From: Botryllus schlosseri
Taxonomy: Eukaryota
DNA: 64,000 bases
NCBI GenBank assembly: GCA_051294905.1
Contig: CM119372.1
Span: 32,490,001-32,554,000 of the forward strand
Reading direction: 5' to 3'
Shown: piece after piece, positions 11,111-58,710 of the stretch
Numbering within the stretch: position 1 is the stretch's first letter
Layout: each line of letters starts with the position of its first letter
Notes under the pieces: generated by a model
Told to the model about the DNA's origin: nothing
What the model saw: only the letters and a program-made list of their open reading frames with translations
Databases searched by the model: none
Program-made: the position numbers and the translations under genes

Positions 11111-14100
11111 TCAGAAACGTTTTGAGAAGCGAAGTTGGAACGAGGGACTGGTGCGACCAGACGGATTTCTTTCAACGCCCTGTATATTACAAATATTGTA
11201 TCATATTTATATTGAAATCCAGCAGCTACTGCTCCTTTTGTCTAAGACGAGTAGGAAATGTTTACATTTGATGTATAGTCATTTATCACTTACCGCATTT
11301 ATTCCGAGATTTCCTCCTACAAATTTCTGTTAAAAAGTAGCAAATGGTTTTGTGAGCGCATGATTCATTTCACAGGCACGTCAAGATACAATTACTCACT
11401 CGGGAATACTCGGCACTTGCACCACGACCTCCAAATGAATTGGCGTACTGGAAAGCAAATGCAACGTATTGTATTCATCGTTTAACGAATCCTCGGAGTT
11501 GCTCGAAGGTGGCTACTTCCGAAGTTGCAAGATATGTCTGACTATTGACACTACCAATTCGTGGAATCTCCGGAGGTAGGTTTAGCTTCCTCGTACATGG
11601 TTTATTTAGGGTTACCATACGTCTTCTTTTAAGAGGATTTGTCCTCTTTTTTGACTTTTTTAAACTGTCCTCGGAAGACGCCTAAATGTCCTCTTTTTTG
11701 ACATTATTGGTAAATGTACGTGGAAATTGGACTGAGATGAAGTAAATCAGCGCTCAATTGACGGTCCGACGGGCTTTTCGGGACTTGAGCCAGAAAACGA
11801 CCTTTTTTTAGTCAACCAACCACAAAATCGGGAAAAATTTACCACTTTTCCGTATTTTAATCCGGCATACTAGGTCTGAAAATTTTCAAGAAGTGTCCTC
11901 TTTTCAGTTTTCCAAGATATGATAACCCTAGTTTATTTAAAGATGTTGTTATCTCAATTTTACTTATAAAAGGGACTCCAACTTATCCAATCACTACTCT
12001 CTGCTTTTCAAATTAAAAATTGCAAAATGTATTTTTGCCTAAATCAGGTAAGTAGAAGTGGTGTTAGTTTAAAAAGCTAGGCATTAGAGCAATGTTCCCT
12101 CTAAGCTGCGCACCTGTGCAAATGCGCAATGCTGACACGGTCTATGCGCACAGAAAATCTAAATTGCGCACAAAAAATCCGAAGTGGTGACCTTTTTTTA
12201 GTCGTTACGCACTGTTGTCCAAGGGTCTGCGCAGTAAGTAGGTGAGTGTGCTTAGACTCGGCAGAAATTTGAGGGAACGTTGCCCTTGAGTGAGTGAGTA
12301 TGTCTACTTTGGTACTCCGAAAAATTAGAAGTACTTCGTTCCTGACCACCTCGGGGTAAGCGATGGCCTGATTAATTTATTATATATGGAAAACCATCAG
12401 GGAGGACACCTCGGGGTGAATTTGAAAGTGTTGAATATTTTCGGTAGTAAAGTGAGGACACATCTTGAAACAAGAGGCCACGCTTGTCACCATTGATGTG
12501 GTATGAGAGTGCGTTCGAGTTGCACCCCTAGTTCGGACATTACAACTTCAGCCAGGCAAGTCTTTTAAGGCCGCGTCACACATTCGATCGTGGTGGTAGT
12601 CTTTTTAATTACTTTACACTCACCGCCGAAGCACCAAGTTGTCCACCAAAAGCTCTCTGTAAAAAGAAGATCGGGATACTCGTATCGTATGCTATGATTA
12701 AATCGATTGTTGTTAATCTTACCCCGGAATATCCAGCGTTCATCCCGTATCCACCGTATGAGTTTCTATTCTGTTTGCAATAAGATAATACTTTGAATGA
12801 TTTCGAGTTGGGAATGAAAACTCATTCGTTTTTATAATCACTGGTATGTATATAAAATATATCGTATATATTTCGAATCGAAACTCGTTTCCACGTAGGA
12901 CCATGTTAATCTCTATTCACATCTCATTGCATCAGCAGTCATTGTAAATTGCATTACAGAGTGTTACTATACATTCATGTTGGCTACTATATTACGCGAC
13001 TCAAGATAGTAATTGTTTCTCACCCCAGATATTGACACTCTTCCATTATTTGGTAGCCTCTGAAATAGAAATAAAGATACTTTCAACAATTACTCTCATT
13101 GATGACTCGTTCCGTGTTTTCTGATGACCAACAATTTTGGAGACGACCATCACTGATTGATAGATGGTGTAGAGGTCTTTGCTTATAAATGCTTACATGC
13201 TCGTATCCTCCACGTAGCTGCCACGTGTTGCTGGGATGGTGGAAACTCTGAAACGACACAGTAAGTTACTGATTTAGTAGTGAGGCAGATTATATAATTG
13301 TAAACACTTACCCCGCCTAAAAAGGTGTTTCCATTCCTGCCGACACCCTGAAAATCGAGAATTAAAATTTAGTTTTATGTCGAAAGGTTATGCTGCATGA
13401 TATACCGTAGATCATCAATATATCATACCACTGATCTTGCTTTCATAAACTGATATATCCTCATTAACGATTATGCTAGCTATGCGTCTCGTATATGGAA
13501 TGTAACACAGTGGGTATTGAACACACCCGATCTCCTACATACCCGGTTCAAACGTCCATTAAACGTAGTTCCTGATCTATTATGTTCCTGAAATAAAACA
13601 GAAATCGTCAAAACCAGAATACTACCTGGCTAAATTCCGACTTTATCGGAGTCATAATTGAACGTTTTCTTAACATTGCAGCACAATTGTAAAGCGCTTA
13701 GAGTCAATAAAGCGGTCGGTAATGGGTTATTGCTACTTTTTCCGGGTACTCAAGTAGTTTTTTTCTGCATGTTGGGCGATCCCAGGAAGAAGTGATTGTC
13801 GTTAATAGACGATCACTGTTTACGTCTGTACATCTTCAAACCGTAACAATAAAGTGATCTGTTATCAATTCCCCATATATTCCATCATTAGTATTGCCTA
13901 GATTGCCATTCTTCAATAAAAGTTATACTTTTATTTAGCCGAGGCAGAACAGTAATAATATCAAGATCAAACGATATATTCGAAACACGTTTAGGTAGAT
14001 CTCTAAATCAGTCGACAGTAATTTTATAGATGCACCTTGAAACATATTCACAGAATGTTAATGTCCATCTTAGATGTCTTGAACAATTTTGAACGCGATT

Positions 14101-16113
14101 GTGATAGATCAAAGCTCCCTATTCCCATCCAACATATCAAATTGTTTTGGATTGCATGGAAATTGACAACAACAAAATTCACTACTTTTCAAAAATATGT
14201 CCATGATATGCAAGGATCACGATCAATTTGATCATTCACTTACGGCCATGCACCAGAGATATAGTTCCTTAAGGTTACACAATGTGATTGTTACTTCTGC
14301 ATATCATATAGCACATGTATAGACTAGAGCGAGGGTGTCAAACATATGGTCCGCCAGGCGATTTCATCCGGCCCGCCAAGCAATTCTGAGTAGATTGAAA
14401 AAAGTTGTATTTTCCAGCACATTTCTAACAAATGTTGAGATCTTATAGTAAGAAATATCTCCTGCAATACAGCAATGTCGAAATCACAAGACGCAATAAA
14501 ACTATCCGACACCGGTGCTTTGGTTTCACTCTAGTTACCATCAGAAACAAGTCGGCGACACTGACAGGCAATTCCGAAAACGCAAAAAAGTGAACATTAA
14601 CTTCCGATTTTTATGAAATATTAACAAAAAGGCAGAATATAACAGTTTTACAAAAGTATAATTAAATATTCTGTGGTCGCTCTGCGGTATCACTTCTGGC
14701 TCAAAAGATTCCCGGCCGCCAGCTAAATATTTATTTTGCCAACTTATGTTTTAGCGGTTAATAACTGTATTCAACCGGCCAATCATTGAGTATTTGCCAA
14801 TTCCGTTGTTGCGAATGATTCCATTGTTACAATAGAATAGAAATGATCCGCAATGTAATATATTATAATATTTTGTATATAGGTGAGATCAGTGGATATC
14901 AGTGGAGATCAGTGGTCTTCCAGGTGGTACGCGAGTATATTATACTTTTCTTTAGACCGATGGGAGTTGTTAGTTCAGGTGGGGTGGGTTTTTTAAAGCC
15001 GTCGTGGGTAGGGGCAATCCCACCAATGACGGCCTACGGGCAAGAGATATAGTCGTAAAGCATTGAGATTTTCACCTAATTAAATTCCGTTTTATTATAT
15101 TTGACCACAAGAATTCCAAATGGATCCAATACAGAAATCATATCCTGCGCCGTATAATGAGCATTTTATTCACGGTAGAAACATTTTTGACCGCCTTCGG
15201 CACGCGTAACTCATGTAGGTGGTAATACGCGAGCACTGCATAAAACCTAGAAATGGTTTAGGAAAAACCACTGGGTTAGATATTGAAGTATTCAAGCGAA
15301 AAACAAGGTCGTGGATTTTGAGGTAACACTTTCAAACCATTATACGGGTCCGGTTGTGAGCGATTTCAAGGTTCGAATCCGGCGCGTGTCGCAAGTTGAG
15401 TTTTACACCCCTGCTGTTTAGTGTCCATATTCCCTTACTTAGTAGCCTACTATACTTACAATGTTGCCTTCGACACTTCCACGGGCTTGTCGCTTCGTTC
15501 TGCGTCGTGGCTACAAAAGCAATCATAAATCTCGCGGTCATTGAATATAAAAAGGATATCAGGTTACCATAGTCGGTTCGCTATGCTCATCGTATCGCTG
15601 TTTGTCATCATCCGGCACTTCAAAGCGAGGTGTCTGCAACGATTTGCGAATCAAATTGGCGTCATACAGGAAAGATAATTCAGTTAAATGCGTCCCAGTC
15701 ACAAGGGTTGGTAACGGGGAGAACCGAAATAGCAACTGAGCGCAAATTGCCAATAAAGCGGCATACCAAATTCCACTTACCGATTTCAAAACGCAATTCA
15801 CGCCATTCCAGCAGCATTCGTGAGTCTTAAGGCACTTGTCAGCGGTGTCAACAGATTCTCCGGTGCAGAGGTCCACGCACGCATCTGCATACATATTTAA
15901 TTAGTGAAAGTAGACCACCAATGCTTCCAATACGAATTTGCAACATGGGAGTTACGACTCCTAAATGGACTGCTTACCTTCCATGTCGGTGGAGCAAATG
16001 CCTATATGGACAAGAACAAGTCTGTTCAACTCGCATCTTCGCAAAGGCAAAGTAGCAGCTTGGACTTGGAGCGCAGCAGCAAAGGCTAAAAGAGCAACTG
16101 TCGTCTTTATCAT
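11111..16113 (-). CDS. Gene A: 11-exon secreted precursor (224 aa) with signal peptide, 8-Cys domain, acidic linker, RTKR furin site and a Gly-rich cationic hymenoptaecin/attacin-like peptide
   Basis: Exons 15978-16113, 15781-15884, 15568-15633, 15460-15510, 13543-13587, 13312-13347, 13197-13247, 13024-13059, 12723-12770, 12624-12656, 11111-11179. All introns are GT..AG and exon sizes match gene B. Protein: MIKTTVALLAFAAALQVQA-ATLPLRRCELNRLVLVHIGICSTDMEDACVDLCTGESVDTADKCLKTHECCWNGVNCVLKSTPRFEVPDDDKQRYDEHSEPTMPRRRTKR-QARGSVEGNIEHNRSGTTFNGRLNRGVGRNGNTFLGGSFHHPSNTWQLRGGYEHRLPNNGRVSISGNRNSYGGYGMNAGYSGRAFGGQLGASAGVERNPSGRTSPSFQLRFSKRF*. AATAAA follows the stop. Confidence 0.85.
11607..11930 (+). 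mobile_element. TAGGGTTACCAT MITE in the last intron of gene A
   Basis: TAGGGTTACCATA...TATGATAACCCTA flanked by a GTTTATT direct repeat. Confidence 0.8.
12090..12282. mobile_element. Short CAATGTTCCCTCTAA hAT-type MITE
   Basis: Ends CAATGTTCCCTCTAA / TTTGAGGGAACGTTG. Same family as 63680-63858. Confidence 0.7.
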
Positions 16114-24396: not shown

Positions 24397-27300
24397 TTAT
24401 TTCCCGAAACGTTTCGAGAAGCGAAGTTGGAACGATGGACTGGTGCGACCATACGGATTTCTTTGAAGGCCCTGTGTTTAAAAATATTGCATCATTTGAT
24501 TTTGAAGTCAAAAGCACATGTAATTTTCGTTTTGTTGCGGCTAGTTTCAAAGCGTTCACATTAGGAGAGCTATTTGAGTATGTTTCCATGACACTATCAC
24601 CGATAAAAGTGATGCTGAGTCATCCCAATATTACATTCCGCTTTTTAAGAGCTGAATTCTAACGATTAGGTATAGTTCTGCCCCAAAACTGCTCAAGTAG
24701 ATGTATCCTAAGAACATATCTCAGTGATTAAGTTGTGAGTGGAATTTTCCTACTTGAGTACTCATCATGGTAAAGGATAGCCTCATTTATATAATAAAAC
24801 TGAGCCGATCAGGGACGTGACCACAATGACATTTTCAAAGTGAAAAACATTTTAGCAATTAAGTGCGATCGCAGACGGATACCTCGTGACACAAGAAATG
24901 AATATGCGGTTGCTACGTTACCATGGCAATATCGTTGGAAAAGGGCGCCTTCTGGCTACAACAATGTAGAATGTAAATTAATTCACACTTGTTTTTTTTA
25001 GGCAAAGACAGTGTCGATAACTACACATTCGGTCGTGGTTGTAATTCTGTCATACTTACCGCCGAGGCACCAAGTCGTCCGCCAAAGACTCTCTGTGAAA
25101 AAATATCGAGAAACTGGCATCGAAGGTATGATTCGAATATTATTAATCTTACCCCAGAATATCCAGCGTTCACCCCGTATCCACCGTATGAGTTTCTGTT
25201 CTGTTAGCAATAAGATAACAGTTTGGGTGAATTCGAGTTGGGTTTGAATTCATTCGTTCAGAATCACTGGTATGTATAGGCTATATAGAATATATTAAAT
25301 AAATTTTGAACATCTTTTACACGTTCAACTAGGGTTATAAAATGTTGAATCTCAATAAATCGGCGGTTATGCATTGTGCTATTCATCTAGCACTAGAGTG
25401 GAAACACATTCATGTGTTACGCGAGTTATGATAGAAATTATTTCTCACCCCAGAAATCGACGCTCTTCCATTATTTTGGAACCTCTGAAATACAAATAAA
25501 TAGATTTTTAATAATAATTCATGGTTTCCCTTTCCGCGTTTTCTGTGGTTTTAATTTTGGACACTATAATCACTGATTTGGAGCCGCTTGTGTATACACT
25601 TACGTGCTCGTATCCTCCACGTAGCTGCCATGCATTACTTGGATGATGGAAGCTCTGAAACGACCCAGTGACATATTGAATTACTTGTGAAACAGAGGAA
25701 TATAATTTCAACACTCACCCCTCCTACAAACGCGTTTCCATTCTTGCCGACACCCTAAGAAAGGAGAACTCAATTTTCTATTTGAAAGGGTATGCTGGTT
25801 AATGCAACCTAGCTGTTCCATATACCATACCAAAGATCTAGTATTTCTCAAAAGATTATTTTCAAAAACGCTATTATGGCATAGGATCTGGAATGTACCG
25901 GAGTGGGTACTGGTCAAGCTACATCCCATACCCAAAAATTAGAAATCCATTGTGTAAGTTATCTCTAAACTAGATCTTCTACATACCCGGTTCAAACGTC
26001 CATTGTACGTAGTTCCGTATCTATCGTGTTCCTGAAATAAAATAAAAATCATAAAGACTTGAATATTACTTCGTTTCATTTCCGCTTGATCGAAGTCTAA
26101 ACTGAACATTTGCTTAAAATTGCGCACAACTTATAAACTGTAAGAGGGTTTTTAATCGGTTGATAACGGGTGATTTCGACTTTTTCCGGCACTCACGTAG
26201 TATTTCGTACATCTCGGCCTATAGCAGGCAGGAATGAGCGATTTTGCTTTTATGAAGATAGAATAGACCAGTGGTTCCCAACGTGGGCGATATTGCCCCC
26301 CAGGGGGCGATTTGGCGGTCTAGGGGGCGAAAATAACGAATGGGGCGATAGGGGGGCGAAAATGGAAGAAGGGGGCGATGGGGGGCGAAAACAAAGAAGG
26401 GGGCGATAGGGGGGCGATGGCGCGTTAAAACGGCTATATTGGAGTCGGGACCGTAACTACCGCACCCCAAACCCCCCAATTGGGAGTGGGGGCCCGAAAT
26501 CGAAGGAAGCCCAAATTTATTTCGTGAATTAACATGAATGATAGAGTAATTTTTTAGAAAATCATGCGACTTTTTCAAAATTTTCGCGCTGTGCGTGATT
26601 TAATATCTTCATGTATCTGGATGTTGGGGTCCCCGTCATCCAACAAAAATACGCCTGATTTATGGAAATGGGAGACTTCGGCGTCGGCCATTACTGCGCC
26701 ACGACGCGCCAAGACATATGAAGTTGGAGGCCCTGTAACATGCGACTCCGAGAAGTGTGCCAGAACGATCAGCAGCGAGAAGACCTTGTCCGAAAGAAAT
26801 GCCCTTGTGCTGACCGAAAATATCGATATATATACATATATGTTTAGTTGTCTATAGGCGCCTCAATGGCTGGCGTCGAATGTTCCTGTCCTGGTGACCT
26901 TAACCCTACAGGACAAATTCCATTCCGCAAGGAAAATATTATTTGACAGTAAAGAAATACCAATATGAAATCATGTGCGTCTTTTAGTTTGGTACGTTTT
27001 GGCGATTTCCATATCTTCTGATATAGCAGATATAGGAGGTCACGAAATAGCATCATGTAAAGAAGTCAATATAACAACGATTCCGCCGAAGATGTTTAAT
27101 TATTATTTAGGAGTCCTACCTTTTCCGACATACCACATCGACCATATTGACCGATTCAAACAGGAATTATATAAATTTATCGCGCTTCGCTCGTTCAGGC
27201 GAAATACGGTGACTCACCAAACAGTACATGAAATAGGGTATAGCTGATATGTAGCGACAAAAAGCCCACTGGCTGAGGGGGGTCTGGGGTTTGGTTTATC

Positions 27301-29928
27301 ACCAAAGACCAACGTTTTTTTTGGGGAGGCTGACGAATACTGTTTTTCGGTTCCCAATATCTGGGGGGCGATGATCGGTGTGGAGCTTCAAAAGGGGGCG
27401 ATGAGTCGAAAAAGGTTGGGAACCACTGGAATAGACGATCAGTAAACTTCAAAACCGTGACACTCAAGTACTATATGCTCCTGACTCCCTCAATATTCCG
27501 TAATTCGCTTTGATGGATTCACATCATTTATTTGAAAATGGTGCCTCCGTTTACACAGGCAGAACTGTAATTTCGGGATCTATGTATTCGAAAGTGCTGC
27601 TGTCGATCTCTCGGCCATTATACAACTAACTTACATATATGCATATTGCAGCATTGGCTAGAGCTTTTCTGGTCGTCCAAGAGTTAGAGGTATTAGTCAC
27701 TTTAGAGACTGGCTTATTCTATTAATATTCATCTAAATCTTTCTCTTATCACCCATCATTTCAAGCCATTTTTGATTGCCTGAAAATCTATTATTAGGCT
27801 ACAATCACATATTCCAGAAATTTCACCAAGACGTGCACGATATGAATGATCATGATCATTCACTTCCGCTAATACCCAGAGGTGGTCAAAGTAGCCAAGA
27901 AAGCTACTCAAGTAGAAGTAGAAGTAGCGACGAAAAAATCTACTCAAGTACGAGTAGAAGTACTTCTTCAATGAGTCACCTAAAACTACTTGAAGTAGCA
28001 GTGGAATTTACTGACTTTAAATCTACTCAAGTAAGTAAGTAGTTTTGAAAACAGTCTTAATTCGTTCGCATGGACACTCAAAAGATGCGAATTGAGCTAT
28101 GCGGCAGGTGCAGAGAGCTTGATTCGTAGTGATGCATCCCAGGAGGTATCAATTTTCGACTGAATAAGCAATGTTTTGCATCATGGGATGCGAATTATAG
28201 TATTGATATGAAAATGCTATACTAACCCTCTGTTTACTAGAAGACCCCGTTTTTAGAGAATATCATGGCATGGCGCCATACCCCATATTATAAGGTGCCA
28301 AGTTTAGGCGAAGAGCAATACGTAGAAGTTGTATCGGATAGGGTTTCATCATTTTGCGCGATTAGTATACGTTATTAACAAATATTGTGGATCGTAAAAG
28401 TTATATTTAGTGTAGCTTTATTTTCGAAAAATAGAGGCATTACTACACTTGCTTTTGTGCTTCAACATGTATGTCATGCAGACAAAAGAACTGAAAGTAA
28501 TTAGAACTCAAAGTATGATACTCGTAATTGAAAGTGAAATACAAATACCACATCTAAAAAGTGGAAAATATACTTCATGTCTTTTGCCCATAAAGCTTCA
28601 AAGGTGATATGCTAAAAACAGGTGCAACGTTCAAAAAAGCTGGATTTTTCAGATTAGCAGTAAACGATTAGCTAGATTACAATATGATAGGTAATTGCTA
28701 GATTGCGAAACGGTAGTTTCAAACGTTATGATGGGCCATATTTACCGTGATGAAATAATTAATATGGGCGAAAATGCGGTGTGAGAGCAATCAAGCAATC
28801 CGGTACCTAAATTATATTCACTGATACTTTCATGAAAACATATTTGTCAGTCCATCACAACTATGCGCGAAGTGCAACAAAATTTATGAGCTTTACTTGA
28901 CTTTTATGAATATTAAATGTTGGTACTCCGTGAAAACAGCCCCGAAATTCCTCAGGCTATGTTTCGTATTGGGGGATTAAACTACTTCTACTTGACAAAC
29001 TGAAAATAGCGAAAAGTAAGTAAGTAGATCACAAAATTTTACGAAGTAGAAGTAGAAGTAGAGAAAATCAGATCTACTTGAGTAAGTACCAGAAGTAGAG
29101 GAACACTACTTGAGTACTTCCAAAAAGTAGAAGTGCTTCGTTACTGACCACCTCTGCTAATACCTTATAGTTATTGAACGTCACAGAATGCGATTATGAC
29201 TTCAGCATATACTGCACCTGTATAGCACTATAGCCCATCCACATTCCCATATAATAACTGATTTACTTACAATGCTGCCTTCAACACTTCCCCGGGCTTG
29301 GCGTTTTGCTCTACGTCGTGGCTGGAATGGCAATCATATCATAAATGCGACGGTTATTTAATACGAAAAGATGTGGTGTTACCATGGTCGGTTCGCTATG
29401 CGCCACGTCCTGTTGGTTGTCATCCTTAACCACTGGGAAGCGAGGTATCTGCAATGAATTTCGAGTTTAATTGGCGTAATACAGGAAGGTAAATTACGCT
29501 CACTGCGTCCAATTGACAATGGCGTGTAGCGGATAAATTCAAAATAGCAACTAAGCGGAGATTGGTAAATACGAAGCATATCATATTCCACTTACCGACT
29601 TCAAAATGCAACTCACACCATTCCAGCAGCATTCGTGAGTCGTAGAGCATTTATCGGCCGTTTCAACGAATTCTCCAGTGCAGAGATCCACGCACGTATC
29701 TGCATACATATTTAATTCATGAAACTAGCGTGACAATGTCAAAATTTCGAATTTGTAACTGAGAAGTGATAACTCTAAAATAGATTGTTTACCTTCGATG
29801 TCGGTGGAGCAAACACCGATATGGACAAGAACAAGTCTGTTCAACTCGCATCTTCGCAAAGGCAAGGTAGTGGCTTGAATCTGGAGCACAGCAGCAAAAG
29901 CTAAAAAAACAATTGCCATCTTCATCAT
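24397..29928 (-). CDS. Gene B: 11-exon secreted precursor (226 aa), paralog of gene A, with C-terminal amidation signal F-G-K
   Basis: Exons 29793-29928, 29596-29699, 29383-29448, 29271-29321, 25987-26031, 25719-25754, 25604-25654, 25449-25484, 25153-25200, 25060-25092, 24397-24471; all introns GT..AG. Protein: MMKMAIVFLAFAAVLQIQA-TTLPLRRCELNRLVLVHIGVCSTDIEDTCVDLCTGEFVETADKCSTTHECCWNGVSCILKSIPRFPVVKDDNQQDVAHSEPTMPRRRAKR-QARGSVEGSIEHDRYGTTYNGRLNRGVGKNGNAFVGGSFHHPSNAWQLRGGYEHRFQNNGRASISGNRNSYGGYGVNAGYSGRVFGGRLGASAGLQRNPYGRTSPSFQLRFSKRFGK*. Exons are clearly better conserved than introns relative to gene A. Confidence 0.85.
26269..27428 (+). mobile_element. Second copy of the CAGTGGTTCCCAAC composite MITE (intron 4 of gene B)
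   Basis: Full TIRs and perfect TSD GAATAGAC. Contains the nested element at the same ATTGGAGT site as the 3842 copy. Confidence 0.85.
27877..29156. mobile_element. hAT-type element with AGTAGA/TACTCAAGTA subterminal repeats (intron 4 of gene B)
   Basis: CAGAGGTGGTCA...TGACCACCTCTG, perfect TSD CTAATACC. Confidence 0.85.
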
Positions 29929-32857: not shown

Positions 32858-35800
32858 ATGAAAGTCTTATTCATAACATTAACGATTGTTGCAATCGGCA
32901 CGATTGATGCCGCGACCATCTCACTAAATCACTGCGAGGTGGCCAAACTCATCATTGCGTACAGCGGGATATGTTCAATGAATAGTTCAGGTGGGTAAAT
33001 GTATTGTTCACCGCAAACTGGTCGAAAACTATGTGCGAAGGGTCTATTGAATATATAGAAAGCTCATAGCCATATGACCTATTGAACGTATTTTGATTTT
33101 GCCTCATATTTAGATCCTTGTGAAGACTACTGCACTGGGGAAATTATAGAAACTGAAATCGACTGCTCGATAAGAGACGAATGCTGCTGGACTGGAGAGG
33201 AATGCATAATGAAAGAGGTGCGATCGTTACCCTAACACTCGCTCTGAATCACCAATCTATGGCGTCTATACTACAAAATCCTCACGTGCGTCTCGACTCG
33301 CGTGGTCGATTTATGTGCCTATGTTTGAAACCCCATAGTTAACGTAGGTGTTCAGCCCTACGATTGTCAATTGTCTCATTTCATAGACACTAGCGCTGTA
33401 TATGATATTTTGACGGCGCCTTTTCTCCAACGGCTTCAGAATGCCCCATGTTATTTGCAATGGACGTGGAAAAACTGATGTCGAAATAAATAGCTCGAAA
33501 TCCAAACGCTGATATACGTATTTCACTACAGATTCCGGAACCAAGCTATGAGGATATCACGCCAGAGGAAGACTCAAACTCGGAAATGCAGGTAACCAAA
33601 AGATATATTTTATCTGCGATCGGCAGGCAATTATTAGTGTTTTCCGATCGAGCTCCCAAAGTAGTGGTGTTTATATTGGATTCAACGAATCAACTCATGA
33701 GTCGGTGTGCTGCTAATCAGTTCACGAGCAGCCGGCTATAAACGATTCACATTCATCACCAAATAGATCAATTGATATGTAGGGTTACCATACGTCCTCT
33801 TTTAAGAGGATTTGTCCTCTTTTTTGACTTTTTTTTTTTAAGTGTCCTCGGAGGACGCCCTTTTGTCCTATTTTTTGAGATTTTGTCCTCTTTTTTGAAA
33901 ATTTAGGTCACATTTAGAGCAAAATGCGAGTGAGATGCCGTAAATTAGCACAGGAATGACGCTCCGGCGGTTATTTCGGAGTAAAAAAACGGTGATTTGA
34001 GGTCTGAGCGAAAAGTTGACCTTTTTTTTTTTTAGTCAACCGATCACAAAGTGGGAAAAATTCACCGATTTTTGAGAATTCTTCTCCGGTTTTGCGAGCC
34101 TCAAATTTCTGAAAAAGTGTCCTCTTTTTAGATTTCCAAAATATGGTAAGCCTAATTGATATGTGACTTGCTACTTCATTAGATGCGTTTGCTCGTAATT
34201 GTATGTACGACTCGTGTTGTCTAATTTACATTATTCTGACAAGCAGATCCTTAATAGTAAGTATACTTATCAGATTGCGCTCTACAAATCAAATGACACT
34301 TTTCAATCTACTTCGTTATCGCGAACAATTGGCTCTTCTTATTTATTCTAATTATACACGAGATGGATCTCTTTCAAAGTTCCGATATCGGTGTTAATAG
34401 TCGGTCAGGGTGGCTGTATTTTGTCGCATATATTGTCCCTTACATATTTATCTACTTGCTGCTATGTATGCGTAAGCAATGAAATGCCTATCCTAAGCAA
34501 ACCTTGCTGCATCTTCCCCGTCGTTCCCTTCGACAAATTCTTCTCACTCTCCCAGAGACGGTCAATGGGGGAGTATTTACGTTTTTTGGAGTACTCGGGT
34601 AGGTTTTCCCTCAAGTGGTCATATTTTTAGACTACTTAAACTTTTACATTTTTAGCAAAAATACTTTTGAGAATTCAGATTTTTTAAAGTATAAAATAGT
34701 TTTAGGATAAGATTGCATCACTTTTAAAAGTGAGATTTTCGAAAAAACGGCGTGAAATAGGTTTTGTATTACAATAACGAAAGATATTTGCGAAGATACT
34801 ATCGATTTGCAGAGTAATTAATTAGTCTGCGTACGTCACGGAAAAAACATATTGCGATTTCAAAATAAGCCAGCTCCCCTTCACTGCGAAAGGCATGCTA
34901 CCACTCGGCGAAATCTACGTTTGGAAACTAATTACTTGAGTACTTCTTTAACCTTACTTTTCTACTTGCACTCGCACTGGTTTTGACATTTCTTGGAATC
35001 CGCTACTTTTACTGATAATTGCGTCGAAATTTTCGCCGTTACGTATACATCTACTTGACTAGCAACGCTGACTACTTTGATCACCTATGCTTTTTCTATT
35101 AGGATCAAGCTACCGTTGCGCCTATGGAGGAAAATATGCCAGAGGAGACTGTGAGTAAATGATCTGTAGCGAATCTCACGTTCCTTCTATCACTATCGTG
35201 CGCTTACAATCCAGACGTTGAAAAGGTCAAAGCGCCGGGCAGGAGGTGGCTTCGAAGCGGACGTGGTAAGATATCCATTTGCAATGTGAATGCACGAGCA
35301 CTTGTATTCTATAGAAAATATTATGTATCCACCATCAGGGATAATAACAACGAGTCGTGCATTCGAATCTTGGTCCATACTATACATAGTATTTTTCAAG
35401 TCGACAACATAACATATGGTATTTTCCGGTATCGAAACTACACCCAATACAGTTTAGGAGCGTGAAATATTATCATGTTAAAATGCTTGGTGCTTACTCC
35501 AGAAATCTGGAAGTCCCGAACCTATTCTTATTCCATTATCGCGGTCATCCAAACACCAAACGAAAGACGTTACATCCTGATATGAGCAATTTGAGAGAGG
35601 TTGGTAGCGCGCGACTGTCAGCGTTAAATAAACATCGTTGTATCATAATTTTCGATTGTCAAATACGGATAACTGATGTGGTATTCGTTGTGGTCACATG
35701 GTGTAACTTTGAAGCATTGTGTCCCGTTATTGTGTAATCTGTGCATCCCAAACATAAATGCTGATAGAAGCGAACGATATGGAGTCCCAGTCGTCATGTT

Positions 35801-38800
35801 GTCGAACTTGCCGGCCTTATTGGGCAAAGATGCTATTGATATTTGATACGGATCAGAAAATAAGGAAAGCCGAATTCCTAACTTTCCATTATCATTATGA
35901 CATATTTGTAAATAAAAAATTAATAATGAAACTACAAATTGAAGCAGTATTCTAAATTGTATTCATTTATCGTGATACAGGAAAGATTTCACTCAGTCGT
36001 TATGACAATCTCTCTCATAAAGGTGATAGAAACACATCCCAAAACCACTTTGTACTTTTCGAAAAATATGAAAAAAGCAATTAGTTTTGCCTAAATCACT
36101 TCTAAGTCGAAGTGGATGTAGTCACAAAATATAACCATTTGATTAATTATGTGCAAGTAGACAAACCTTATTGGGTACTCCGAAAATGTAGTACGTCGTT
36201 GCTATTCACGTCTGCATAGCCTACATAGCTAGACGTAATACATTGCATACATTTTGTCGACCTTAATGCAATATAATTCCGTTATTTCAGAAAAAAGACA
36301 AAAATGGCATAACAGTGTCAGGAGGAATTAACCAGGTATAAAATAAAATTATTCCTTGCTCCTAAATTTCTACCGTCAATACGAACGGTTCGAAGTAGCG
36401 GCTTATGATATCCAACGGCCATACAGTATATTGTCAGTTTGTAAATCTGACTCATGTATACAGGACGTTGGAAGAAACGGCAACGTCCAGGCAGATGGGG
36501 TAAGTGGATTGTCGCTTTTGATCGAATAGTCTACATTTGAGGTGAACAAACCGTGACCCCGGGGAAGGTTACAAGTAGCCCAAGCGGTATTTCTCGCAAT
36601 GACTTATTTTATCATCTTAATCGCCTACATAATTCATGGCGAACTTACATTTCGATAAATTGGCTTTTCTTTTCACGCTATGTCTTTTACTATATAGAAG
36701 TGGTTTTATATATGCTCAATATAATTTTATTGCATCACAATGCTAAATTTTACGCATCGTACTTCCATATTGCTATGTCCACATCAATTCTAATCAATCG
36801 CACTCGTGCTGGAAGAGTCAGTCACAGTCAGCTAGCAATTTTCTTACTTACGTCATTGATGTCCATCTGATATTAGAGATTCGGGCAAAACGCAGTTAGC
36901 AGTGGAATATCTTCCCCAAATTTGGACGTGTGACCTCTTTTGTTGGATGTTTGACAGTGTGGCAATTTGCCAGATGCAATTGTAAAATACCCACTTATGT
37001 AGTTGATGATCCACGTTACAACAACTGCTTAACTATTTAAAGATTAAGCACACCCGACCGCCGAGGCTGCGAGACATACAAAACTAACTTACAGCACGAT
37101 CCATCACAACAAGGGTTGTACCTAAGTCACAAGGTTACGAGTCACAAGTCAATCTCACTTTTATAGTTTTGACTCGAGTCGAGCCAAATCAAGTCATTTT
37201 CAATTCATCGCCGAGTCAAGTCCAAATCCAAGGCAAAGAGTAGTAGAGGGTCGAGTATGAGTCTTAGCGTTGTGACTCGAGTCCTAGTCCAAGTCATTGT
37301 GTTCACTGTACAGTTTTCAGTTCAATCCGGTTCATTCCATTTTTTACAATTCTGCTCGAGCGATATAGAATGGCTCGCATTCAAAATATCGTAATTTTCC
37401 TCAGTCCTAACAGTTTCTGGCCCTATTTGCCAAGTATCAGGACAGATACATCAAATACCAATCATTCGGTAACTTTACTATTCTTCGAAGTTACAATGAA
37501 ATGTCTGTTTTGGCCGCCGTAGTCTCGATTCATATGGCTTGGGTAGACTCCTGCACAAAGGGTCAAGTAAAGCTTGAGTCAATACACAAATTGACTCGAG
37601 TCGAGTAATTTTACGCCTTGAAAAAATTGACTCGAGTAAAGTTGAGTCACCAAAAAATCGTAATAGGAAAAAAGTGAAAACTGCTAAACATTGTCGATTA
37701 TACAGTTGAAGTTTGGTACATGCCAACATTTTCAACCCGCGATTAAAATATACTACGATCATTGTTTTCATTCTATTATCATTGTCTCCATTACAGACCT
37801 ACCATCATCCCAGTGGAGCTTACGACGCCAACGTCGGATATCGGCATGTAGGTATTGAGAGTTGACTGATATGGCGAATGCTATTGATACTTGAGATATT
37901 TGTTTCCAGAACATACCAGGAGGTCACATACGCGCAGGGGCGGTGAGTATTCGCTGAAATCTAGATTCATTGTTTAGGCGGTTCATAGTGTATTTTGAGA
38001 TGAGAGCTGTCGTAGCAATATAAATCCTAAAATGTTTCTTGAGTCGTTTGCTTGCTTTATCGCTAATTATATAATCTTAAGTCATAGTAGATGCACTCAC
38101 ATGATCGATATCTAATTGAATAGCGGTCCTTTCCGATTTTGATAATATCGATGGGTTATAATTTTCATCTGAACAAGTCACACACAATGTACAATGCGAT
38201 AAGACACAGCTATCATCTGAACCAGTCGCACACAATGTACAATGCGATAAGACACAGCTAGCCTAATAATGAGGCAATTTGGTTACTTTAGTTCTAGTAT
38301 ACAACCATTATTTTAGTTAATTTTAGATAATTAATGAGTTGAATTGCCGACGATACTTGCGAAATCTATCGACGATCGTGTTTCTAGTCTCATGAAGAGG
38401 AAGTAGCCTGTAAGAATTCCTGCGTCCGGCCATGGATAATTTAAGCAGACTGCCACGGTCGGTCAGTCCGGGTGGAAATAATTTTATGGCTCAAGTAAAT
38501 TTAGGGCTTAACGCTAAACCGACTAATTATTTCCTATCATTATGTTGTGATGAAGGATGTGGTTTGCATGCAGTAGGCTACTCGTCTTTATCCGGCCTAA
38601 GGGATAGTGGTAATTAATAGGTTATATAGTTTGTATCTATTTTCATTCATTGTTTCACTGTTTTTCTTCGAACTTAGGAATACAATAGTTTCTCTGTGAT
38701 ATTGAAAGAATATCAGAAACATTTCATCAACGTCTCTATTGGGGTCGGTGCATTTCACTAAATTCGGTTACTGGCCGTCTGAATTAGGTTCAAATTTTGA

Positions 38801-39325
38801 CGAACATATGGAATTGCAGTGTGATATTTTCTGAAAAGTACAGCAGAATGGTGAGAATTGGCTTACGAAATAAAGCAAGTTCTATCACACTGACTGTACC
38901 TTGATTATACCCGGTGCTGCCAATGCGTATAATTCCTATTATTTGCCATCCGATATCCACCATCTGGTGGATATGACTATTTCCATCACAAGAATGATGC
39001 ATATTTATCAAATCAATAGGCCTACCTATGCTTAGCTGACAATAATGCGAGAGGACTAGATATCTGTCTTGGAAAAATTTAGCAGCACTGTAGGAGGATG
39101 TAATGCGGAGGCAACTCCTGCAATAAGCGCCGGTGAAACTAACAAAAATACTGGATAATTGGTGTGCAATTTATTACTTACCAGATCTTCCTGGTAGCTG
39201 TGTTTCCTTGTGGTTTGTGTGGGCTGATCAGGACGTCCTTTTTGCAGGGAGTTTCCCGTGATCGATGGGGTCAAAGAGACCAGCGTATCAGCATCGGTAT
39301 CTCCAGACGTTGGGGACGGAAATAG
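32858..39325 (+). CDS. Gene C: 10-exon secreted precursor (about 212 aa), divergent paralog with a shorter mature peptide and W-G-R-K amidation signal
   Basis: Exons 32858-32990, 33114-33217, 33532-33591, 35103-35150, 35215-35265, 36291-36335, 36464-36499, 37797-37847, 37910-37942, 39248-39325; introns GT..AG. Protein: MKVLFITLTIVAIGTIDA-ATISLNHCEVAKLIIAYSGICSMNSSDPCEDYCTGEIIETEIDCSIRDECCWTGEECIMKEIPEPSYEDITPEEDSNSEMQDQATVAPMEENMPEETTLKRSKR-RAGGGFEADVKKDKNGITVSGGINQDVGRNGNVQADGTYHHPSGAYDANVGYRHNIPGGHIRAGAGVSRDRWGQRDQRISIGISRRWGRK*. AATAAA at 39386. Cys spacing and the 104/51/45/36/51/33-nt exon sizes match genes A and B. Confidence 0.8.
33780..34154 (+). mobile_element. TAGGGTTACCAT MITE in intron 3 of gene C
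   Basis: TAGGGTTACCATA...TATGGTAAGCCTA flanked by an ATTGATATG direct repeat. Absent at the paralogous site in gene D. Confidence 0.85.
34553..35090. mobile_element. Old degenerate relative of the CAGAGGTGGTCA element, shared by genes C and D (about 59223-59785)
   Basis: cagagacggtcaa...actactttgatcacctatg with tacttgagta motifs. Present in both duplicated blocks. Confidence 0.45.
37110..37650. mobile_element. GACTCGAGTC-motif hAT-type MITE, degenerate
   Basis: Aligns with 50844-51334 (gagtcacaagtcaatctcactttt...gactcgagtc). Confidence 0.6.
38165..38260. repeat. 48-bp tandem duplication in the last intron of gene C
   Basis: tcatctgaacaagtcacacacaatgtacaatgcgataagacacagcta twice, with 2 mismatches. 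Confidence 0.85.
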
Positions 39326-52412: not shown

Positions 52413-54338
52413 ATCTAACGTATAATGAATGTTATTTATTTTTCGGAAGCACGTTATTCAATACATATTGCTAAATACACATGGAAAATCGGTATTGAAA
52501 TTGACAAAACAATGAAAGTTACTCATAAATACACACGACAATAGTCTAGCAGGCACGATGAACGTAAATAGCCTCAGGGACGGGGATTGGTGCGTCTATA
52601 AAAAGGATGACTACACTACTACGGTATCATATGAAACTCTGCTCGCGGAACGAATTCTAGTAGTTTCGATCAGTATTGATTTATAAAAAGCTGCATTGGA
52701 AAAATCGAAAATGACGATTGCATTGACTAGCTTTGTCGCTCTGCTGATTCGGTTATTTCCAAGACTCTCGGACTATAAGTAGGCCAAGAGGAGTTAATCC
52801 ACCCACGTTTTATTTCGAGAATATTCTTGATATATGAATGCGATTTGGCGTAGCCATTGTATATGGCTATAAGTGCTTTATGCCTGGTGTGGATGGGCCA
52901 ACGTATATCCGTTCATTAATTATTCATAACTATATACTTATTAAATGTCTAATTACCGATTGGGATCTGGCTAGGTCGGGTCACCATTTCAAGTTGGCTA
53001 TAGTTCTCATCAAAGTGGACTGACAAAATCGGTTAATCTTAATAAGGCTATGCGCATTCCCTGTGGCAACGAATGAAATGCCAGTTCTTCTGAAAAAACA
53101 TAGGATATATGGCTCAACATTGAGAAGGATGTTTTATGCAATTTATCATATTATGTCCTTGGGACGCTATGTTTGTGCTCAGCGCCACTGGATATCGCAT
53201 ATTAGTCGCTGGATACATGTATAAGGATTTTTTGAATCATGTTATTAAGTCCCGTATGCCATTGTGTCGCATGTTCACGTGACCACGGACAATAATGATT
53301 ATACAAACGATATCACCCATCCATCCACACTGAAATTTACCTGTCATCTTTTCGTTCTCTCTGTTGACGGAGCAATCTAAAATCTACGAAAATGAGAGTC
53401 TTATTCATAACATTAACGATTGTTGCAATCGACACGATTGATGCCGCAACTATCTCACTAAATCACTGCGAGGTAGCCAAACTCATCATTGCGTACAACG
53501 GGATATGTCCAATGAATAGTTCAGGTGGGTAAATGTATTATGTTCACCGCGTACCGGTTGAAAACTATGTGTGGAGGGTCTATTGAATATATAAAAAGCT
53601 CATAGCCATATGACCTATTGAACGTATTTTGATTTTGCCTCATAATTAGATCCTTGTGAAGACTACTGCACTGGGGAAATTATAGAAACTGAAATCGACT
53701 GCTCGATAAGAGACGAATGCTGCTGGACTGGAGAGGAATGCATAATGACAGAGGTGCGATCGTTACCCTAACACTCGCTCTGAATCACCAATCTATGGCG
53801 TCTATACTACAAAATCCTCATGTGCGTCTCGACTCGCGTGGTCGATCTATGTGCCTATGTTTGAAACCCCATAGTTAACGTACGTGTTCAGCCCTACGAT
53901 TGTGAATTGCCGCATTTCATGGAAACTGGCGTTGTATATGATATTTTGGCGGCGCTTTTTTGCCCACGGCTTCAGAATGCCCCATTTTATTTGTAATGGA
54001 CGTGGAAAAACAGATGTCGAAATAAATATCGCGAAATCCAAACGCTGATATACGTATTTCACTATAGATTCCGGAACCAAGATACGAGGATACTACGCCA
54101 GAGGAAGACTCAAACTCGGAAATGCAGGTAACCAAAAGATGTATTTTTATCTGCGATCGGCAGGCAAATATTAGACTCAGGAGAATTAGTGTTTTCCGAT
54201 CGAGCTCCCAAAGTAGTTGTGTTTGTATTGGATTCAATGAATCAACTCATGAGTCGGTATGTTGCTAATCAGTTCGCGAGCAGCCGGCTATAAACGATTC
54301 ACATTCATCACCAAATAGATAAATTAATATGTGACTTG

Positions 54339-54487
54339 TGTAATAATAGCTGCTACTTTACTAAGCTAGCAACAGACTGCAGAGTACATGTTTATTACTC
54401 GCCGGTATACAACACACTCATTGATGAAACAAGGATGCAAGCTGAAGCCTTGGAAAACATAAACGGAAATAATCAAATATTACAACA
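54339..54487 (-). repeat. 3' LTR
   Basis: TGTAATAATAGC...CAAATATTACAACA on the + strand, adjacent to the PPT. Confidence 0.9.
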
Positions 54488-54550
54488 TCTTCCTTCCAAT
54501 AGTTTAGAAGTAAGAATGGCACAGTGACTACAATACTACACAAAGAAAAG

Positions 54551-57094: not shown

Positions 57095-58635
57095 ATACGA
57101 AGATCACCGTTCTTTTTCACTGCATAGGCTAGTGAGGAGCACCAATCTGTATGTCCCTCTACTTTGCGAATAACTTTCAAGCTCACCATTCGCTCCAGTT
57201 CAGCTTTGATCTTGTCTTTTAAATTGAGAGAGACCCTTCTCGGTGGATCTATCGACGGTATGGCATCCTTCGTCACATAAAGATGCTCTTCTCCATTGAA
57301 CTCTCCAATGCCATTAATGCACCCTGGAAATCTTCTAGTAAGATCCTCCACTGTGTTCAGAGCGTCTCTGTCCGATTCACTTTTAATATCGTCGATATTA
57401 AACTGGATAAAGTCTAGTTTCAAACAACCTGGTAACCCAAGAATTACTGGTCCGGGCACATCCACAACGTAGAACTTGAACTCAACCGGTTCGTGGTCAG
57501 TTTTCTTTCTTATTGATAGCGTTATTGATCCATGGCAAAGAAGTTTCGTACCGGAGTATCCTGTCAATCGAACGTTAGGTTCGTCTAGTAGGATTTCAGC
57601 ATATGGCTTGCTGCCAAACATCTGTTTATATGTTCGTATTGGTAAAGTGTTACCACCAGCTCCTGTGTCCAGCTTGGAGTAGAGCTTGCCAGTTACTCTT
57701 GGCTCTGTGTATTTCATCAACAGAGGTATAATGACCTCTTTACAGTCCTCATCACATGCAATGTCATTGATCAATATATGGTGGAACTCAATTCCAGCTT
57801 CATCATCACTGTCCAGCTGTATCTCGTTGTGATAACTCTTTGATCTTTTGTTTCTGTGGTATTTTCTTTGAAATTGCTGTTCACTGTCTTGTTCTTCTGC
57901 AGATTCATCACGTTCATTTTGAGCATGTTTGCAGGTTTTCATCCAGTGGCCCAATTTACCACAATGATGACAAGTGGCATTATATGCAGGGCAACCTCTC
58001 GGCCTGTGATTTAGGCCACAGTTTGTACATCGTTTACCTTTCTTTATCGTGTCTATATTGTCATTGTACATTCCACTGCCAGTAGTCATCCTAGACAGTG
58101 AGTTACTTGACGCTTGGATCGCTTCATATTCTCTCCCCTTTTCTAGAATTTCAGCCAGACTAGCACCTTTAGGTTTAATCATCAATTCCTTTCGAAAGTT
58201 CTCGAATGGAGTGGATAGGATAATCATCTCTATCAGACGTTCATTCAACTCCTCAAGTCCAAACTCGCAACGAGAGGCCTTCTCCCTCAATCGTGAGATA
58301 AATCCAGTAATAGTTTCTTCAGGTCGCTGCCTGATTTGAGAGTACTCAAGCCTGTGAATACGAAAGTTAATCTTGATTGAAACGTCAATCTCACTTTCTA
58401 TCTGCTTCCATATTTCTTTTGGATCTCTTTGATTCTGCTGTGTGAGGCCAGAATTCATGATTCTGCGCATTCCCTCGTCGCCAAGCGCTATTTTTATTTT
58501 TATGGCCTTTTTCACGTCGTCTGTGATCTCTTGGTCCATAAAGAACAAGTCCATTCTTGCCTTGAAGGCTCTAAACGAGTCCACGAGCGGTTCATGTTTC
58601 CAGTCCATATGCGGCATTGGAATATTGCTTGCCAT
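57073..58635 (-). CDS. gag: Gag (two Cys/His knuckles) plus aspartic protease and the start of RT
   Basis: CTNCGLNHRPRGC and CHHCGKLGHWMKTC knuckles; LDTGA protease motif; ends in the RT motif KKNGDLRMCLDP. Confidence 0.92.
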   Translation of the reverse strand: MASNIPMPHMDWKHEPLVDSFRAFKARMDLFFMDQEITDDVKKAIKIKIALGDEGMRRIMNSGLTQQNQRDPKEIWKQIESEIDVSIKINFRIHRLEYSQIRQRPEETITGFISRLREKASRCEFGLEELNERLIEMIILSTPFENFRKELMIKPKGASLAEILEKGREYEAIQASSNSLSRMTTGSGMYNDNIDTIKKGKRCTNCGLNHRPRGCPAYNATCHHCGKLGHWMKTCKHAQNERDESAEEQDSEQQFQRKYHRNKRSKSYHNEIQLDSDDEAGIEFHHILINDIACDEDCKEVIIPLLMKYTEPRVTGKLYSKLDTGAGGNTLPIRTYKQMFGSKPYAEILLDEPNVRLTGYSGTKLLCHGSITLSIRKKTDHEPVEFKFYVVDVPGPVILGLPGCLKLDFIQFNIDDIKSESDRDALNTVEDLTRRFPGCINGIGEFNGEEHLYVTKDAIPSIDPPRRVSLNLKDKIKAELERMVSLKVIRKVEGHTDWCSSLAYAVKKNGDLRMCLDPHN

Positions 58636-58710
58636 TGTAGGTAAGGTCTTTGAAAAATGTAGGAGACAAAACGTACCTTTTCAACATAGACGCCAACACC
58701 GCTGCCACCA

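What the first reader, a model, noticed from the sequence alone, without database searches (positions are those of the whole stretch)
11111..15510. One exon per beta-strand: phase-0 micro-exons as structural modules (about 8 strands in A/B, 6 in C)
Seen: every exon after exon 2 is phase 0. Each mature-peptide exon (45, 36, 51, 36, 48, 33 nt) contains one turn motif (NRSG, GRNG, PSN, PNNG, SYGG, FGG, PSGR) followed by an alternating polar/apolar strand. In gene C I find no counterparts of the 36- and 48-nt exons 8-9; its 33-nt exon NIPGGHIRAGA matches RAFGGQLGASA. Inference: the sheet or barrel changes size by gain or loss of one hairpin, and exon skipping could create combinatorial in-frame isoforms.
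Basis: partly seen in the sequence, partly recalled or inferred. Interest (0 to 1): 0.76.

Follow-up and report, generated by a model that had tools for sequence, protein, structure and literature searches.

The report
Sea-squirt attacin-like genes, exon-per-strand
A cluster of secreted-protein genes, probably from a sea squirt, builds a glycine-rich sheet resembling insect antibacterial attacins from tiny exons that each add one strand; the copies appear to differ in sheet size (5, 8 or up to 10 strands) by gain and loss of exons, but neither antibacterial activity nor mix-and-match splicing is shown.

Summary
Four paralogues (A-D) encode signal peptide, 8-Cys domain, acidic spacer, furin site and a cationic, Cys-free, 20%-Gly tail. 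Every intron after the first is phase 0 (one exception in frameshifted D). Junctions lie 2-4 residues before a turn and share one in/out strand register (apolar 33/39 versus 2/52; 0/10000 random sets). Corrections: A holds two more exons in intron 10 (48 and 33 nt, an old constrained copy of exons 9-10; inclusion in RNA untested), so up to 10 strands against 8 in B. C lacks three of B's exons, so 5 strands, not 6. RNA confirms 6 of 10 B junctions and 7 of 8 C/D-type junctions; no skipping among 15 of 172 joints shown. The one full-length relative found is an uncharacterised Styela clava protein (about 6 strands by my reading). Its nearest ESM Atlas clusters are hymenoptaecin-like and Attacin_C (leads only; no Pfam match), and its tail is predicted to pair last-strand-to-first-strand as a trimer (0.73, best control 0.19). 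Best reading: an ascidian attacin-like envelope-active defence protein whose sheet size evolves by exon gain and loss. Function untested.

The parts
15978..16113 (-). Gene A exon 1: signal peptide and first 2 Cys of the 8-Cys domain; phase-1 intron follows
15781..15884 (-). Gene A exon 2: 6-Cys half of the N-terminal domain
   Evidence: a profile of this exon finds the Styela relative
15568..15633 (-). Gene A exon 3: acidic spacer (66 nt, phase 0)
15460..15510 (-). Gene A exon 4: furin site RTKR, then Gln and strand 1 (51 nt)
13543..13587 (-). Gene A exon 5 (45 nt): turn + strand 2; no counterpart in C/D
13312..13347 (-). Gene A exon 6 (36 nt): turn + strand 3
   Evidence: orthologous to C 36464-36499 (z 5.2)
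13197..13247 (-). Gene A exon 7 (51 nt): turn + strand 4
   Evidence: z 7.7-7.9 to C 37797-37847; 22 X9 reads carry A-type letters at the exon 7/8 joint
13024..13059 (-). Gene A exon 8 (36 nt): turn + strand 5
12723..12770 (-). Gene A exon 9 (48 nt): turn + strand 6
12624..12656 (-). Gene A exon 10 (33 nt): turn + strand 7
11400..11447 (-).
11294..11326 (-).
11111..11179 (-). Gene A last exon: turn + last strand, ends in Arg-Phe then TGA (B has Gly-Lys here)
24397..29928 (-). Gene B, 11 exons, 8 strands, ends Arg-Phe-Gly-Lys (amidation signal, from established knowledge); lacks the 9b/10b pair
   Evidence: 6 of 10 junctions in RNA including exon 10 to 11 (63 reads)
32858..39325 (+). Gene C, 9 exons (32858-32990, 33114-33217, 33532-33591, 35103-35150, 35215-35265, 36464-36499, 37797-37847, 37910-37942, 39248-39325), 5 strands, ends Trp-Gly-Arg-Lys; head-to-head with B
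   Evidence: junctions seen, those with diagnostic letters D-type
53392..63944 (+). Gene D (continues beyond the window in L011): 87-97% DNA copy of C, transcribed, with a 35-nt exon 8 that shifts the frame of the last exon; an LTR retrotransposon in intron 3
   Evidence: contig X1 record 5 carries D letters

Best explanation
A small tandem family of secreted ascidian pre-pro-proteins. SHOWN: exon structure, splicing of B and of D-type transcripts, composition, purifying selection, and a relative in Styela clava. INFERRED from established processing rules: a furin-type convertase cuts after RxKR and frees a 75-142-residue cationic, glycine-rich, cysteine-free peptide from an 8-Cys domain and an acidic spacer that would mask its charge; the N-terminal Gln (A, B, Styela) would cyclise and the C-terminal Gly-basic ends (B, C) would be amidated. 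INFERRED from pattern and one model of the relative: the peptide is an amphipathic antiparallel beta-meander whose first and last strands are free edges that pair with the next copy, giving a barrel-like oligomer on bacterial envelopes, as proposed for insect attacins. Each micro-exon is one 'strand end + turn + strand' unit, in phase for both the reading frame and the in/out face of the sheet. Duplication or loss of whole exons therefore changes strand number without breaking frame or amphipathy (A up to 10, B 8, Styela about 6, C 5). The variation is between genes (evolution), not shown within one gene (splicing). My odds: architecture and exon-wise size change about 0.85; antibacterial envelope-active function about 0.6.
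For: Exons and phases. RNA joints. Composition (Gly 20-21%, 0 Cys, pI 10.8-11.8) and dN 0.07 / dS 0.37 between A and B. Register lock. Constrained duplicate pair in A, absent in B. Styela relative with the same layout (E 6.9e-4 on the exon-2 profile; named; sequence); mature tails of A and B align to it at z 6.0-6.5, 0 of 2000 shuffles. ESM Atlas nearest clusters: hymenoptaecin-like 0.84, Attacin_C 0.80-0.83 (whole protein); Gloverin/Attacin_C 0.90 and Attacin_C 0.89 (tail); these count as one source and are leads. ESMFold2 trimer of the Styela tail: score 0.73, best of 3 controls 0.19, pLDDT 91, at least 97% contact agreement; residues 184-195 pair antiparallel with 118-128 of the next copy. 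The mark was reached by 21 of 30 solved pairs and 0 of 23 single chains; on eukaryotes 17 of 29 and 0 of 30, but only 1 of 7 without an older relative; calibrated on two copies, not three. Attacin hallmarks (RXXR furin site; Cys-free, Gly 14-22%; predicted homotrimeric barrel): PMC7924397, PMC12940664, PMC10690985, passages. B exons are covered in X9 but have zero depth in X13 and almost none in X12, so expression is sample-specific.
Against: No Pfam Attacin_C, gloverin or other AMP family match for the Styela protein at E<=10, none in NCBIfam; in PDB sequences only one chance-level hit, E=1. The top tail hits in the Atlas are unnamed 70-aa giant-virus proteins (0.93, 24 of 30 hits), not attacins, and the recognition value (1952) lies below the tool's mark of 2300. 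C's tail does not align significantly to Styela (z 0.9, 353 of 2000). The trimer model lists only two of three possible interfaces, an open chain that fits a fibre as well as a barrel. It is a model of the relative, not of A, B or C. dN/dS near 0.2 shows no arms-race signal. Exons 9b/10b are not shown in RNA. Most exon-exon pairs score z<2, so origin of all exons from one unit is not shown. No activity, tissue or induction data.
Confidence: 0.55

Rival explanations
1. Same exon-per-strand architecture, but the released peptide is a structural or adhesive protein that polymerises head-to-tail into a beta-sheet fibre (tunic, mucus net, wound plug); the pro-region keeps it soluble until furin cleavage.
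For: The trimer model is an open last-strand-to-first-strand chain. The tail is rich in Gly, Tyr, Ser and Asn. Purifying rather than diversifying selection. The 8-Cys module recurs upstream of a TSP1 exon on contig C5, an extracellular-matrix-type context.
Against: Strong net positive charge (15-18 Arg+Lys against 4-5 acidic residues in A/B), blocked ends, one apolar face, and Atlas neighbours among insect AMPs fit a membrane-active peptide better. The tails are short and not repetitive enough for a typical fibrous protein (inference).
Confidence: 0.2
2. A micro-exon-gene (MEG)-like diversity device: skipping, or mutually exclusive use of the 9/10 and 9b/10b hairpin cassettes, yields many in-frame isoforms of different strand number from one gene.
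For: All tail exons are symmetric phase 0 and share the in/out register, so any skip keeps frame and face. A has two equivalent hairpin cassettes in tandem; the 9b splice sites score 4.9/4.9, just below the known range starting at 5.4/5.4. The two Styela database forms part after residue 139.
Against: All family joints among the 15 shown link neighbouring exons; the B exon counts are even along the gene (63-72, one at 140 where A and B reads probably add). The shorter Styela form may be an annotation or assembly difference.
Confidence: 0.13
3. A neuropeptide or hormone precursor (pyroglutamylated, C-terminally amidated RF/W-amide peptide); the beta pattern is incidental.
For: Gln after the furin site; Arg-Phe-Gly-Lys end in B and Trp-Gly-Arg-Lys end in C. 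The resemblance to RFamide peptides is recalled, not tested.
Against: No repeated internal dibasic sites that would free short peptides; the C-terminal residues differ between A/B, C and Styela; A lacks the Gly; the junction-locked alternation and the confident sheet model are unexplained by it.
Confidence: 0.06
4. The phase and position of the introns are an accident of intron gain at favoured sites and bear no relation to protein modules.
For: Phase 0 is the commonest phase (passage on the aphid background). Another micro-exon gene was noted in this genome by an earlier agent (e1-7884079, not tested here).
Against: Eleven phase-0 introns in a row (about 5e-4 at an assumed p=0.5), register lock 0/10000, and a demonstrable exon-pair duplication.
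Confidence: 0.04

Closest known systems
Insect glycine-rich beta-sheet AMPs: attacins (Pfam PF03769), diptericins, hymenoptaecins (PMC7924397, PMC12940664, PMC10690985, PMC2853521; passages read)
   Same: Signal + pro-region + RXXR furin site; Cys-free mature part with about 20% Gly; predicted antiparallel sheet that oligomerises edge to edge; acidic propeptide as in hymenoptaecin; tandem gene cluster with a broken copy; growth by exon duplication (attacin exons 2 and 3 are described as homologous).
   Different: No Pfam match; chordate rather than insect; an 8-Cys domain heads the pro-region; the unit of duplication is one strand per 33-51-nt exon rather than a whole G domain per exon; activity untested.
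Schistosome micro-exon genes, MEGs (10.1101/2023.06.21.545858, passages)
   Same: Secreted protein; central part made of symmetric short exons.
   Different: MEG diversity comes from alternative splicing (35 genes, at least 87 proteins); none seen here. Exons here are 33-66 nt and each maps to a defined structural unit. No sequence relation tested or claimed.
Aphid bicycle genes (10.1101/2021.09.24.461719, passages)
   Same: Many small same-phase internal exons in a secreted protein; protein length scales with exon number.
   Different: Phase 2 there, phase 0 here; unrelated motifs and host group.
Bacterial outer-membrane beta-barrels as hairpin-repeat proteins (PMC6340704 abstract and outline; PMC10629564 passages)
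   Same: Alternating amphipathic up-down strands; size change by hairpin amplification; a C-terminal heptad resembling the beta-signal consensus LGLGYRF (Styela fits 6 of 7 described features, followed by two more residues; A/B fit 4 of 7).
   Different: Animal secreted pro-protein; no family match; strands are short and Gly-rich; C has an odd strand number; the paper itself warns that such motifs may only reflect strand alternation.
Styela clava LOC120338146 (XP_077973411.1, XP_039262017.1), uncharacterised
   Same: True relative: same signal, 8-Cys, acidic spacer, RVRR-Gln and Gly-rich tail.
   Different: About 6 strands by my reading; gene structure not available here; 0 papers hold its identifier.

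Membership tests
Attacin / diptericin / hymenoptaecin group | Pre-pro-protein with RXXR furin site (PMC7924397) | tested here: met
   RTKR, RAKR, RSKR and RVRR precede the tail; cleavage itself inferred
Attacin / diptericin / hymenoptaecin group | Mature part Cys-free, Gly 14-22% (PMC12940664) | tested here: met
   Gly 20-21%, 0 Cys
Attacin / diptericin / hymenoptaecin group | Attacin_C (PF03769) or related Pfam domain | tested here: not met
   No match for the full Styela relative at E<=10 or for five single exons of the window; spliced A/B/C were not scanned
Attacin / diptericin / hymenoptaecin group | Antiparallel beta-sheet with oligomer formation (predicted for attacins) | tested here: inconclusive
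   Trimer of the relative passes (0.73 against control 0.19, pLDDT 91); AlphaFold2 without alignment gave pLDDT 38 and 46; no model of A, B or C
Attacin / diptericin / hymenoptaecin group | Antibacterial, envelope-damaging activity; induction by infection | not testable with these tools
   Only sample-specific expression seen; tissues unknown
Micro-exon genes (MEG) | Secreted protein with central symmetric exons of 6-81 nt | tested here: met
   signal peptide judged by inspection
Micro-exon genes (MEG) | Isoform diversity by exon skipping | tested here: inconclusive
Micro-exon genes (MEG) | Restricted to Schistosomatidae | tested here: not met
   Only named relative is an ascidian protein
Bacterial outer-membrane beta-barrels | Family match in Pfam or NCBIfam | tested here: not met
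Bacterial outer-membrane beta-barrels | Sheet closes into a barrel | tested here: inconclusive
   Two of three interfaces listed in the trimer; monomer closure of the 8- and 10-strand forms not modelled
Trefoil (P-type) domain, for the 8-Cys module | Pfam trefoil match or fold match (resemblance of the Cys spacing recalled from memory) | tested here: not met
   No Pfam hit; fold searches with a low-confidence model empty

The most novel reading that the evidence does not exclude
A chordate family of porin-mimicking defence proteins in which one micro-exon equals one membrane strand. Barrel or pore size would be set by exon number both in evolution (5, 6, 8, 10 strands) and, in gene A, by choice between two hairpin cassettes at splicing. 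The introns would then be a readable record of the hairpin amplification that is only inferred for bacterial barrels, and the attacin-type fold would be either ancient in bilaterians or reinvented in sea squirts.
Probability: 0.18. Interest if true: 0.88.

Novelty: new variant of a known kind. Interest (0 to 1): 0.64.

Why it matters
Attacin-type glycine-rich sheet peptides are described from insects in the papers I read. The tunicate peptides named in the review passages (PMC10608444: styelins, clavanins, halocidin, plicatamide and others) are of other kinds, and searches brought up no paper whose title or abstract start describes this family (full texts not read; subscription papers not covered). 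If the function holds, it is a new class of chordate host-defence protein. Independently of function, the genes give a natural series of 5-, 6-, 8- and 10-stranded versions of one sheet, with the steps marked by introns. That makes the question of how beta-meanders and barrels change strand number directly testable. Automatic annotation would miss these genes: no protein of A, B, C or D turned up in the database searches.

Tried and rejected
Exon 1 as query against longer proteins: 0 of 578 candidates at E<=10. Styela protein as query: only its own other form, 1 of 131 candidates; tail against shorter proteins: no candidate. Pfam and NCBIfam scans: no relevant family; weak PGP_phosphatase and GST_C hits below cut-off were rejected as compositional. 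PDB sequence search: one hit at E=1. An alignment of the Styela protein with single exons was mis-stacked by MAFFT and not used. P0004 (1643 aa, 12 short stretches) was not followed up; I took it as a Cys-repeat chance hit. Run search: no RNA holder listed on record; raw runs were added by species label. I tried to infer from read counts whether A joins exon 10 to the last exon; this is uninformative because A's exon 10 differs from B's in 5 of 33 letters (read) and probably fails to lay. Further paralogues: five single-exon searches of the own genome beyond one search found only A-D and the C5 gene; these searches are insensitive to small exons. The C5 gene has no tail of this kind in 14 kb downstream. 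Candidate exons at 12463-12410, 12158-12114, 38678-38743 and several in D were rejected: weak sites, repeat-derived or no family resemblance. An exon-8-like relic near 11570 was looked at by eye only. The coincidence of the Styela isoform break (after residue 139) with A's exon 5/6 junction holds only under a hand-chosen register; the computed alignments differ by four columns, so I do not count it. Supplements of papers were not read; ascidian transcriptome tables there could list these genes.
Full report
WHAT IS THERE. The window is eukaryotic DNA of about 40% G+C on a 40.6-Mb contig of a 495-Mb assembly. The finding's coordinates hold exons 4 to last of a minus-strand gene, A (ATG at 16113, stop ending at 11111). 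Three paralogues lie beside it. B is on the minus strand at 29928-24397. C is on the plus strand at 32858-39325, head-to-head with B. D is on the plus strand from 53392, runs out of the window and was completed from L011. Each encodes a signal peptide (by inspection), a domain of eight cysteines split over exons 1-2, an acidic spacer, an RxKR site and a tail with 20-21% glycine, no cysteine and a pI of 10.8-11.8. All introns are GT..AG. The first is phase 1 and all others phase 0 in A, B and C; D has one phase-2 intron caused by a 35-nt exon 8.

RNA. One lay was available and I placed it on 24100-39700 (B and C), with 4 of the 24 runs listed. Six of B's ten junctions are displayed, with 51-140 reads in X9, among them exon 10 to the last exon (63 reads). 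Seven of the eight C/D junctions are displayed (five in table 5, two in table 5c); a 599-nt contig goes from 37927 straight to 39247. Its diagnostic letters are those of D, not C: 8 differences in exon 1, and the letters at exons 7 and 8. So C's structure is confirmed through its 87-97% identical neighbour, not by itself. Twenty-two reads carry A-type letters at the exon 7/8 joint, so A-type transcripts exist. All family joints among the 15 shown link neighbouring exons; 157 weaker joints were not shown. B's exons have zero depth in X13 and almost none in X12, so expression depends on the sample; tissues are unknown.

A splice-site scan trained on the family recovers the known internal exons and finds two more in A's intron 10: 11447-11400 (48 nt) and 11326-11294 (33 nt), the lengths of exons 9 and 10, in that order. 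They keep 13 of 27 residues. Codon positions 1 and 2 are each 17/27 identical and position 3 is 7/27 (Fisher p=0.002); synonymous sites are saturated (pS 0.87, pN 0.37); none of 122 background stretches gives a comparable exon. The A/B split is much younger (dS 0.37) and B has no such pair, so the simplest history is an old hairpin duplication kept in A and lost in B. Whether A's mRNA includes the pair is not shown; the 9b sites score slightly below the known range. C lacks a 45-nt exon as well as two later ones. The scan finds none, and adding one would leave 4 nt of the contig for the last exon; the joint in question is not displayed. C therefore has five strands, not six, and single-strand loss occurs beside hairpin loss.

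EXON AND STRAND. A turn-prone band sits about 4-6 residues into each exon (2/5000 random junction sets for A+C, 10/5000 for A, 312/5000 for C alone; propensity table recalled). Apolar residues fall at -5, -3 and +2 from the junction in 33 of 39 cases and at -6, -4, -2 and +1 in 2 of 52 (0/10000; offsets chosen, exons not independent). The overall beta-periodicity is modest (z 2.0-2.3 for A and B, 1.3 for C; no helical periodicity). Each exon is thus the end of one strand, a turn and most of the next, and all junctions share frame and face. That explains why whole exons can be gained or lost. Common origin is shown only for the 9/9b and 10/10b pairs (z 3.7-4.5); a few other pairs reach z 3-4 and most stay under 2.

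RELATIVES. A profile of exon 2 against 1.84 billion representatives gave three hits: an unnamed protein matching the C5 gene, a long Cys-repeat protein that I did not follow, and Styela clava LOC120338146. The Styela protein has the same layout, and the tails of A and B align to its tail at z 6.0-6.5 (0/2000 shuffles) in several registers, as expected for a repeat; C's does not (z 0.9). I infer that the window is from an ascidian; the species is not established. By my reading the Styela tail has six strands. Pfam, NCBIfam and PDB sequence searches name no family. In the ESM Atlas the whole protein's nearest clusters are hymenoptaecin-like (0.84) and Attacin_C (0.80-0.83), with a recognition value under the tool's mark. 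The tail's nearest are unnamed giant-virus proteins of about 70 residues (0.91-0.93), then Gloverin/Attacin_C (0.90) and Attacin_C (0.89). These are leads.

STRUCTURE. AlphaFold2 without an alignment failed (pLDDT 38 and 46). ESMFold2 on three copies of the Styela tail gave 0.73 against a best control of 0.19, pLDDT 91, with runs agreeing in at least 97% of contacts; the last strand (184-195) pairs antiparallel with the first (118-128) of the next copy. The mark was reached by 21 of 30 solved pairs and 0 of 23 single chains, and in eukaryotes by 17 of 29 and 0 of 30, but by only 1 of 7 without an older relative; calibration was on two copies. Two of three interfaces are listed, so ring closure is not shown. 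No model of A, B or C themselves was obtained, so the strand counts for them rest on sequence pattern.

HOW IT MOST LIKELY WORKS. The precursor is secreted and cut at RxKR. The acidic spacer would neutralise the tail until then; Gln at the new start and Gly-basic ends in B and C would give blocked termini (established processing rules, not tested). The freed tail folds as an amphipathic meander and joins edge to edge on an anionic bacterial envelope. This parallels attacins, which are cut by a furin-like enzyme at RXXR (PMC7924397, passages), are Cys-free with 14-22% Gly (PMC12940664, passages), and in one case were predicted as a homotrimeric barrel and shown to damage the outer membrane (PMC10690985, passages). 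Hymenoptaecin has an acidic propeptide and repeat-expanded forms (PMC2853521, passages). I put this at 0.55 overall. A structural fibre (0.2), a splicing-diversity device (0.13), a neuropeptide precursor (0.06) and accident (0.04) are the rivals. A and B evolve under purifying selection (dN 0.07, dS 0.37), which does not favour a hypervariable effector.

MEMBERSHIP AND NOVELTY. It works like an attacin or hymenoptaecin by layout, composition and predicted assembly, but fails the Pfam test and is not filed as one; homology or convergence is open. It shares gene layout with schistosome MEGs (10.1101/2023.06.21.545858, passages) and aphid bicycle genes (10.1101/2021.09.24.461719, passages) without shown skipping. 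Hairpin amplification is the proposed origin of bacterial barrels (PMC6340704, abstract and outline), and the Styela end resembles the beta-signal consensus of PMC10629564 (passages), which that paper says can reflect mere strand alternation. Cockroach attacin passages (PMC7712779) gave nothing on strand-sized exons; the tunicate AMPs named in PMC10608444 (passages) are of other kinds. Ten paper searches (listings and abstract starts only) showed no description of this family, and the Styela identifier is in 0 papers; subscription literature and supplements were not covered.

Noticed in passing
window 54339-58861: An LTR retrotransposon (151-nt terminal repeats 98% alike; ORFs of 850 and 535 aa on the minus strand) sits in intron 3 of gene D, which is still spliced and transcribed in the D-type contig.
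   Followed up: partly
L011 (gene D exons 7-9, just beyond the window end): D's 35-nt exon 8 shifts the last exon into another frame, giving an acidic tail that also ends in Phe. The same skip row (36499-37803) appears in all four runs laid, though its D-type letters are shown only for X1. D may be a transcribed pseudogene, a re-purposed copy or an uncollapsed allele of C.
   Followed up: partly
L005 / L024 (G000:C5:10947861-10953905): A gene on another contig begins with a signal peptide and the same 8-Cys module; further Cys-rich exon candidates and a TSP1 exon (Pfam PF00090, E 3.9e-7) lie downstream. That they form one gene is inferred.
   Followed up: partly
window 12657-12722 and 25093-25152: Intron 9 is a multiple of three and free of stops in both A (66 nt) and B (60 nt), so retention would insert about 20 mostly hydrophobic residues in frame; may be chance.
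   Followed up: no
P0006 residues 114-195: The tail's closest ESM Atlas clusters (0.91-0.93, 24 of 30 hits) are unnamed proteins of about 70 aa from giant viruses (Nucleocytoviricota).
   Followed up: no
window 11111-11116 versus 24397-24405: A has TGA where B has the Gly codon of an amidation signal, so A's peptide would end in a free Phe.
   Followed up: partly
window 45591-45674: tRNA-Leu(TAA) on the minus strand, with a partial copy of its 3' end just upstream near 45810.
   Followed up: no
window 18189-19142: Tandem 106-nt and 65-nt repeat arrays arranged as a large inverted repeat.
   Followed up: no
window 11500-11600: A short stretch resembles a decayed copy of exon 8 upstream of exon 9b, next to a repeat insertion; judged by eye only.
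   Followed up: partly
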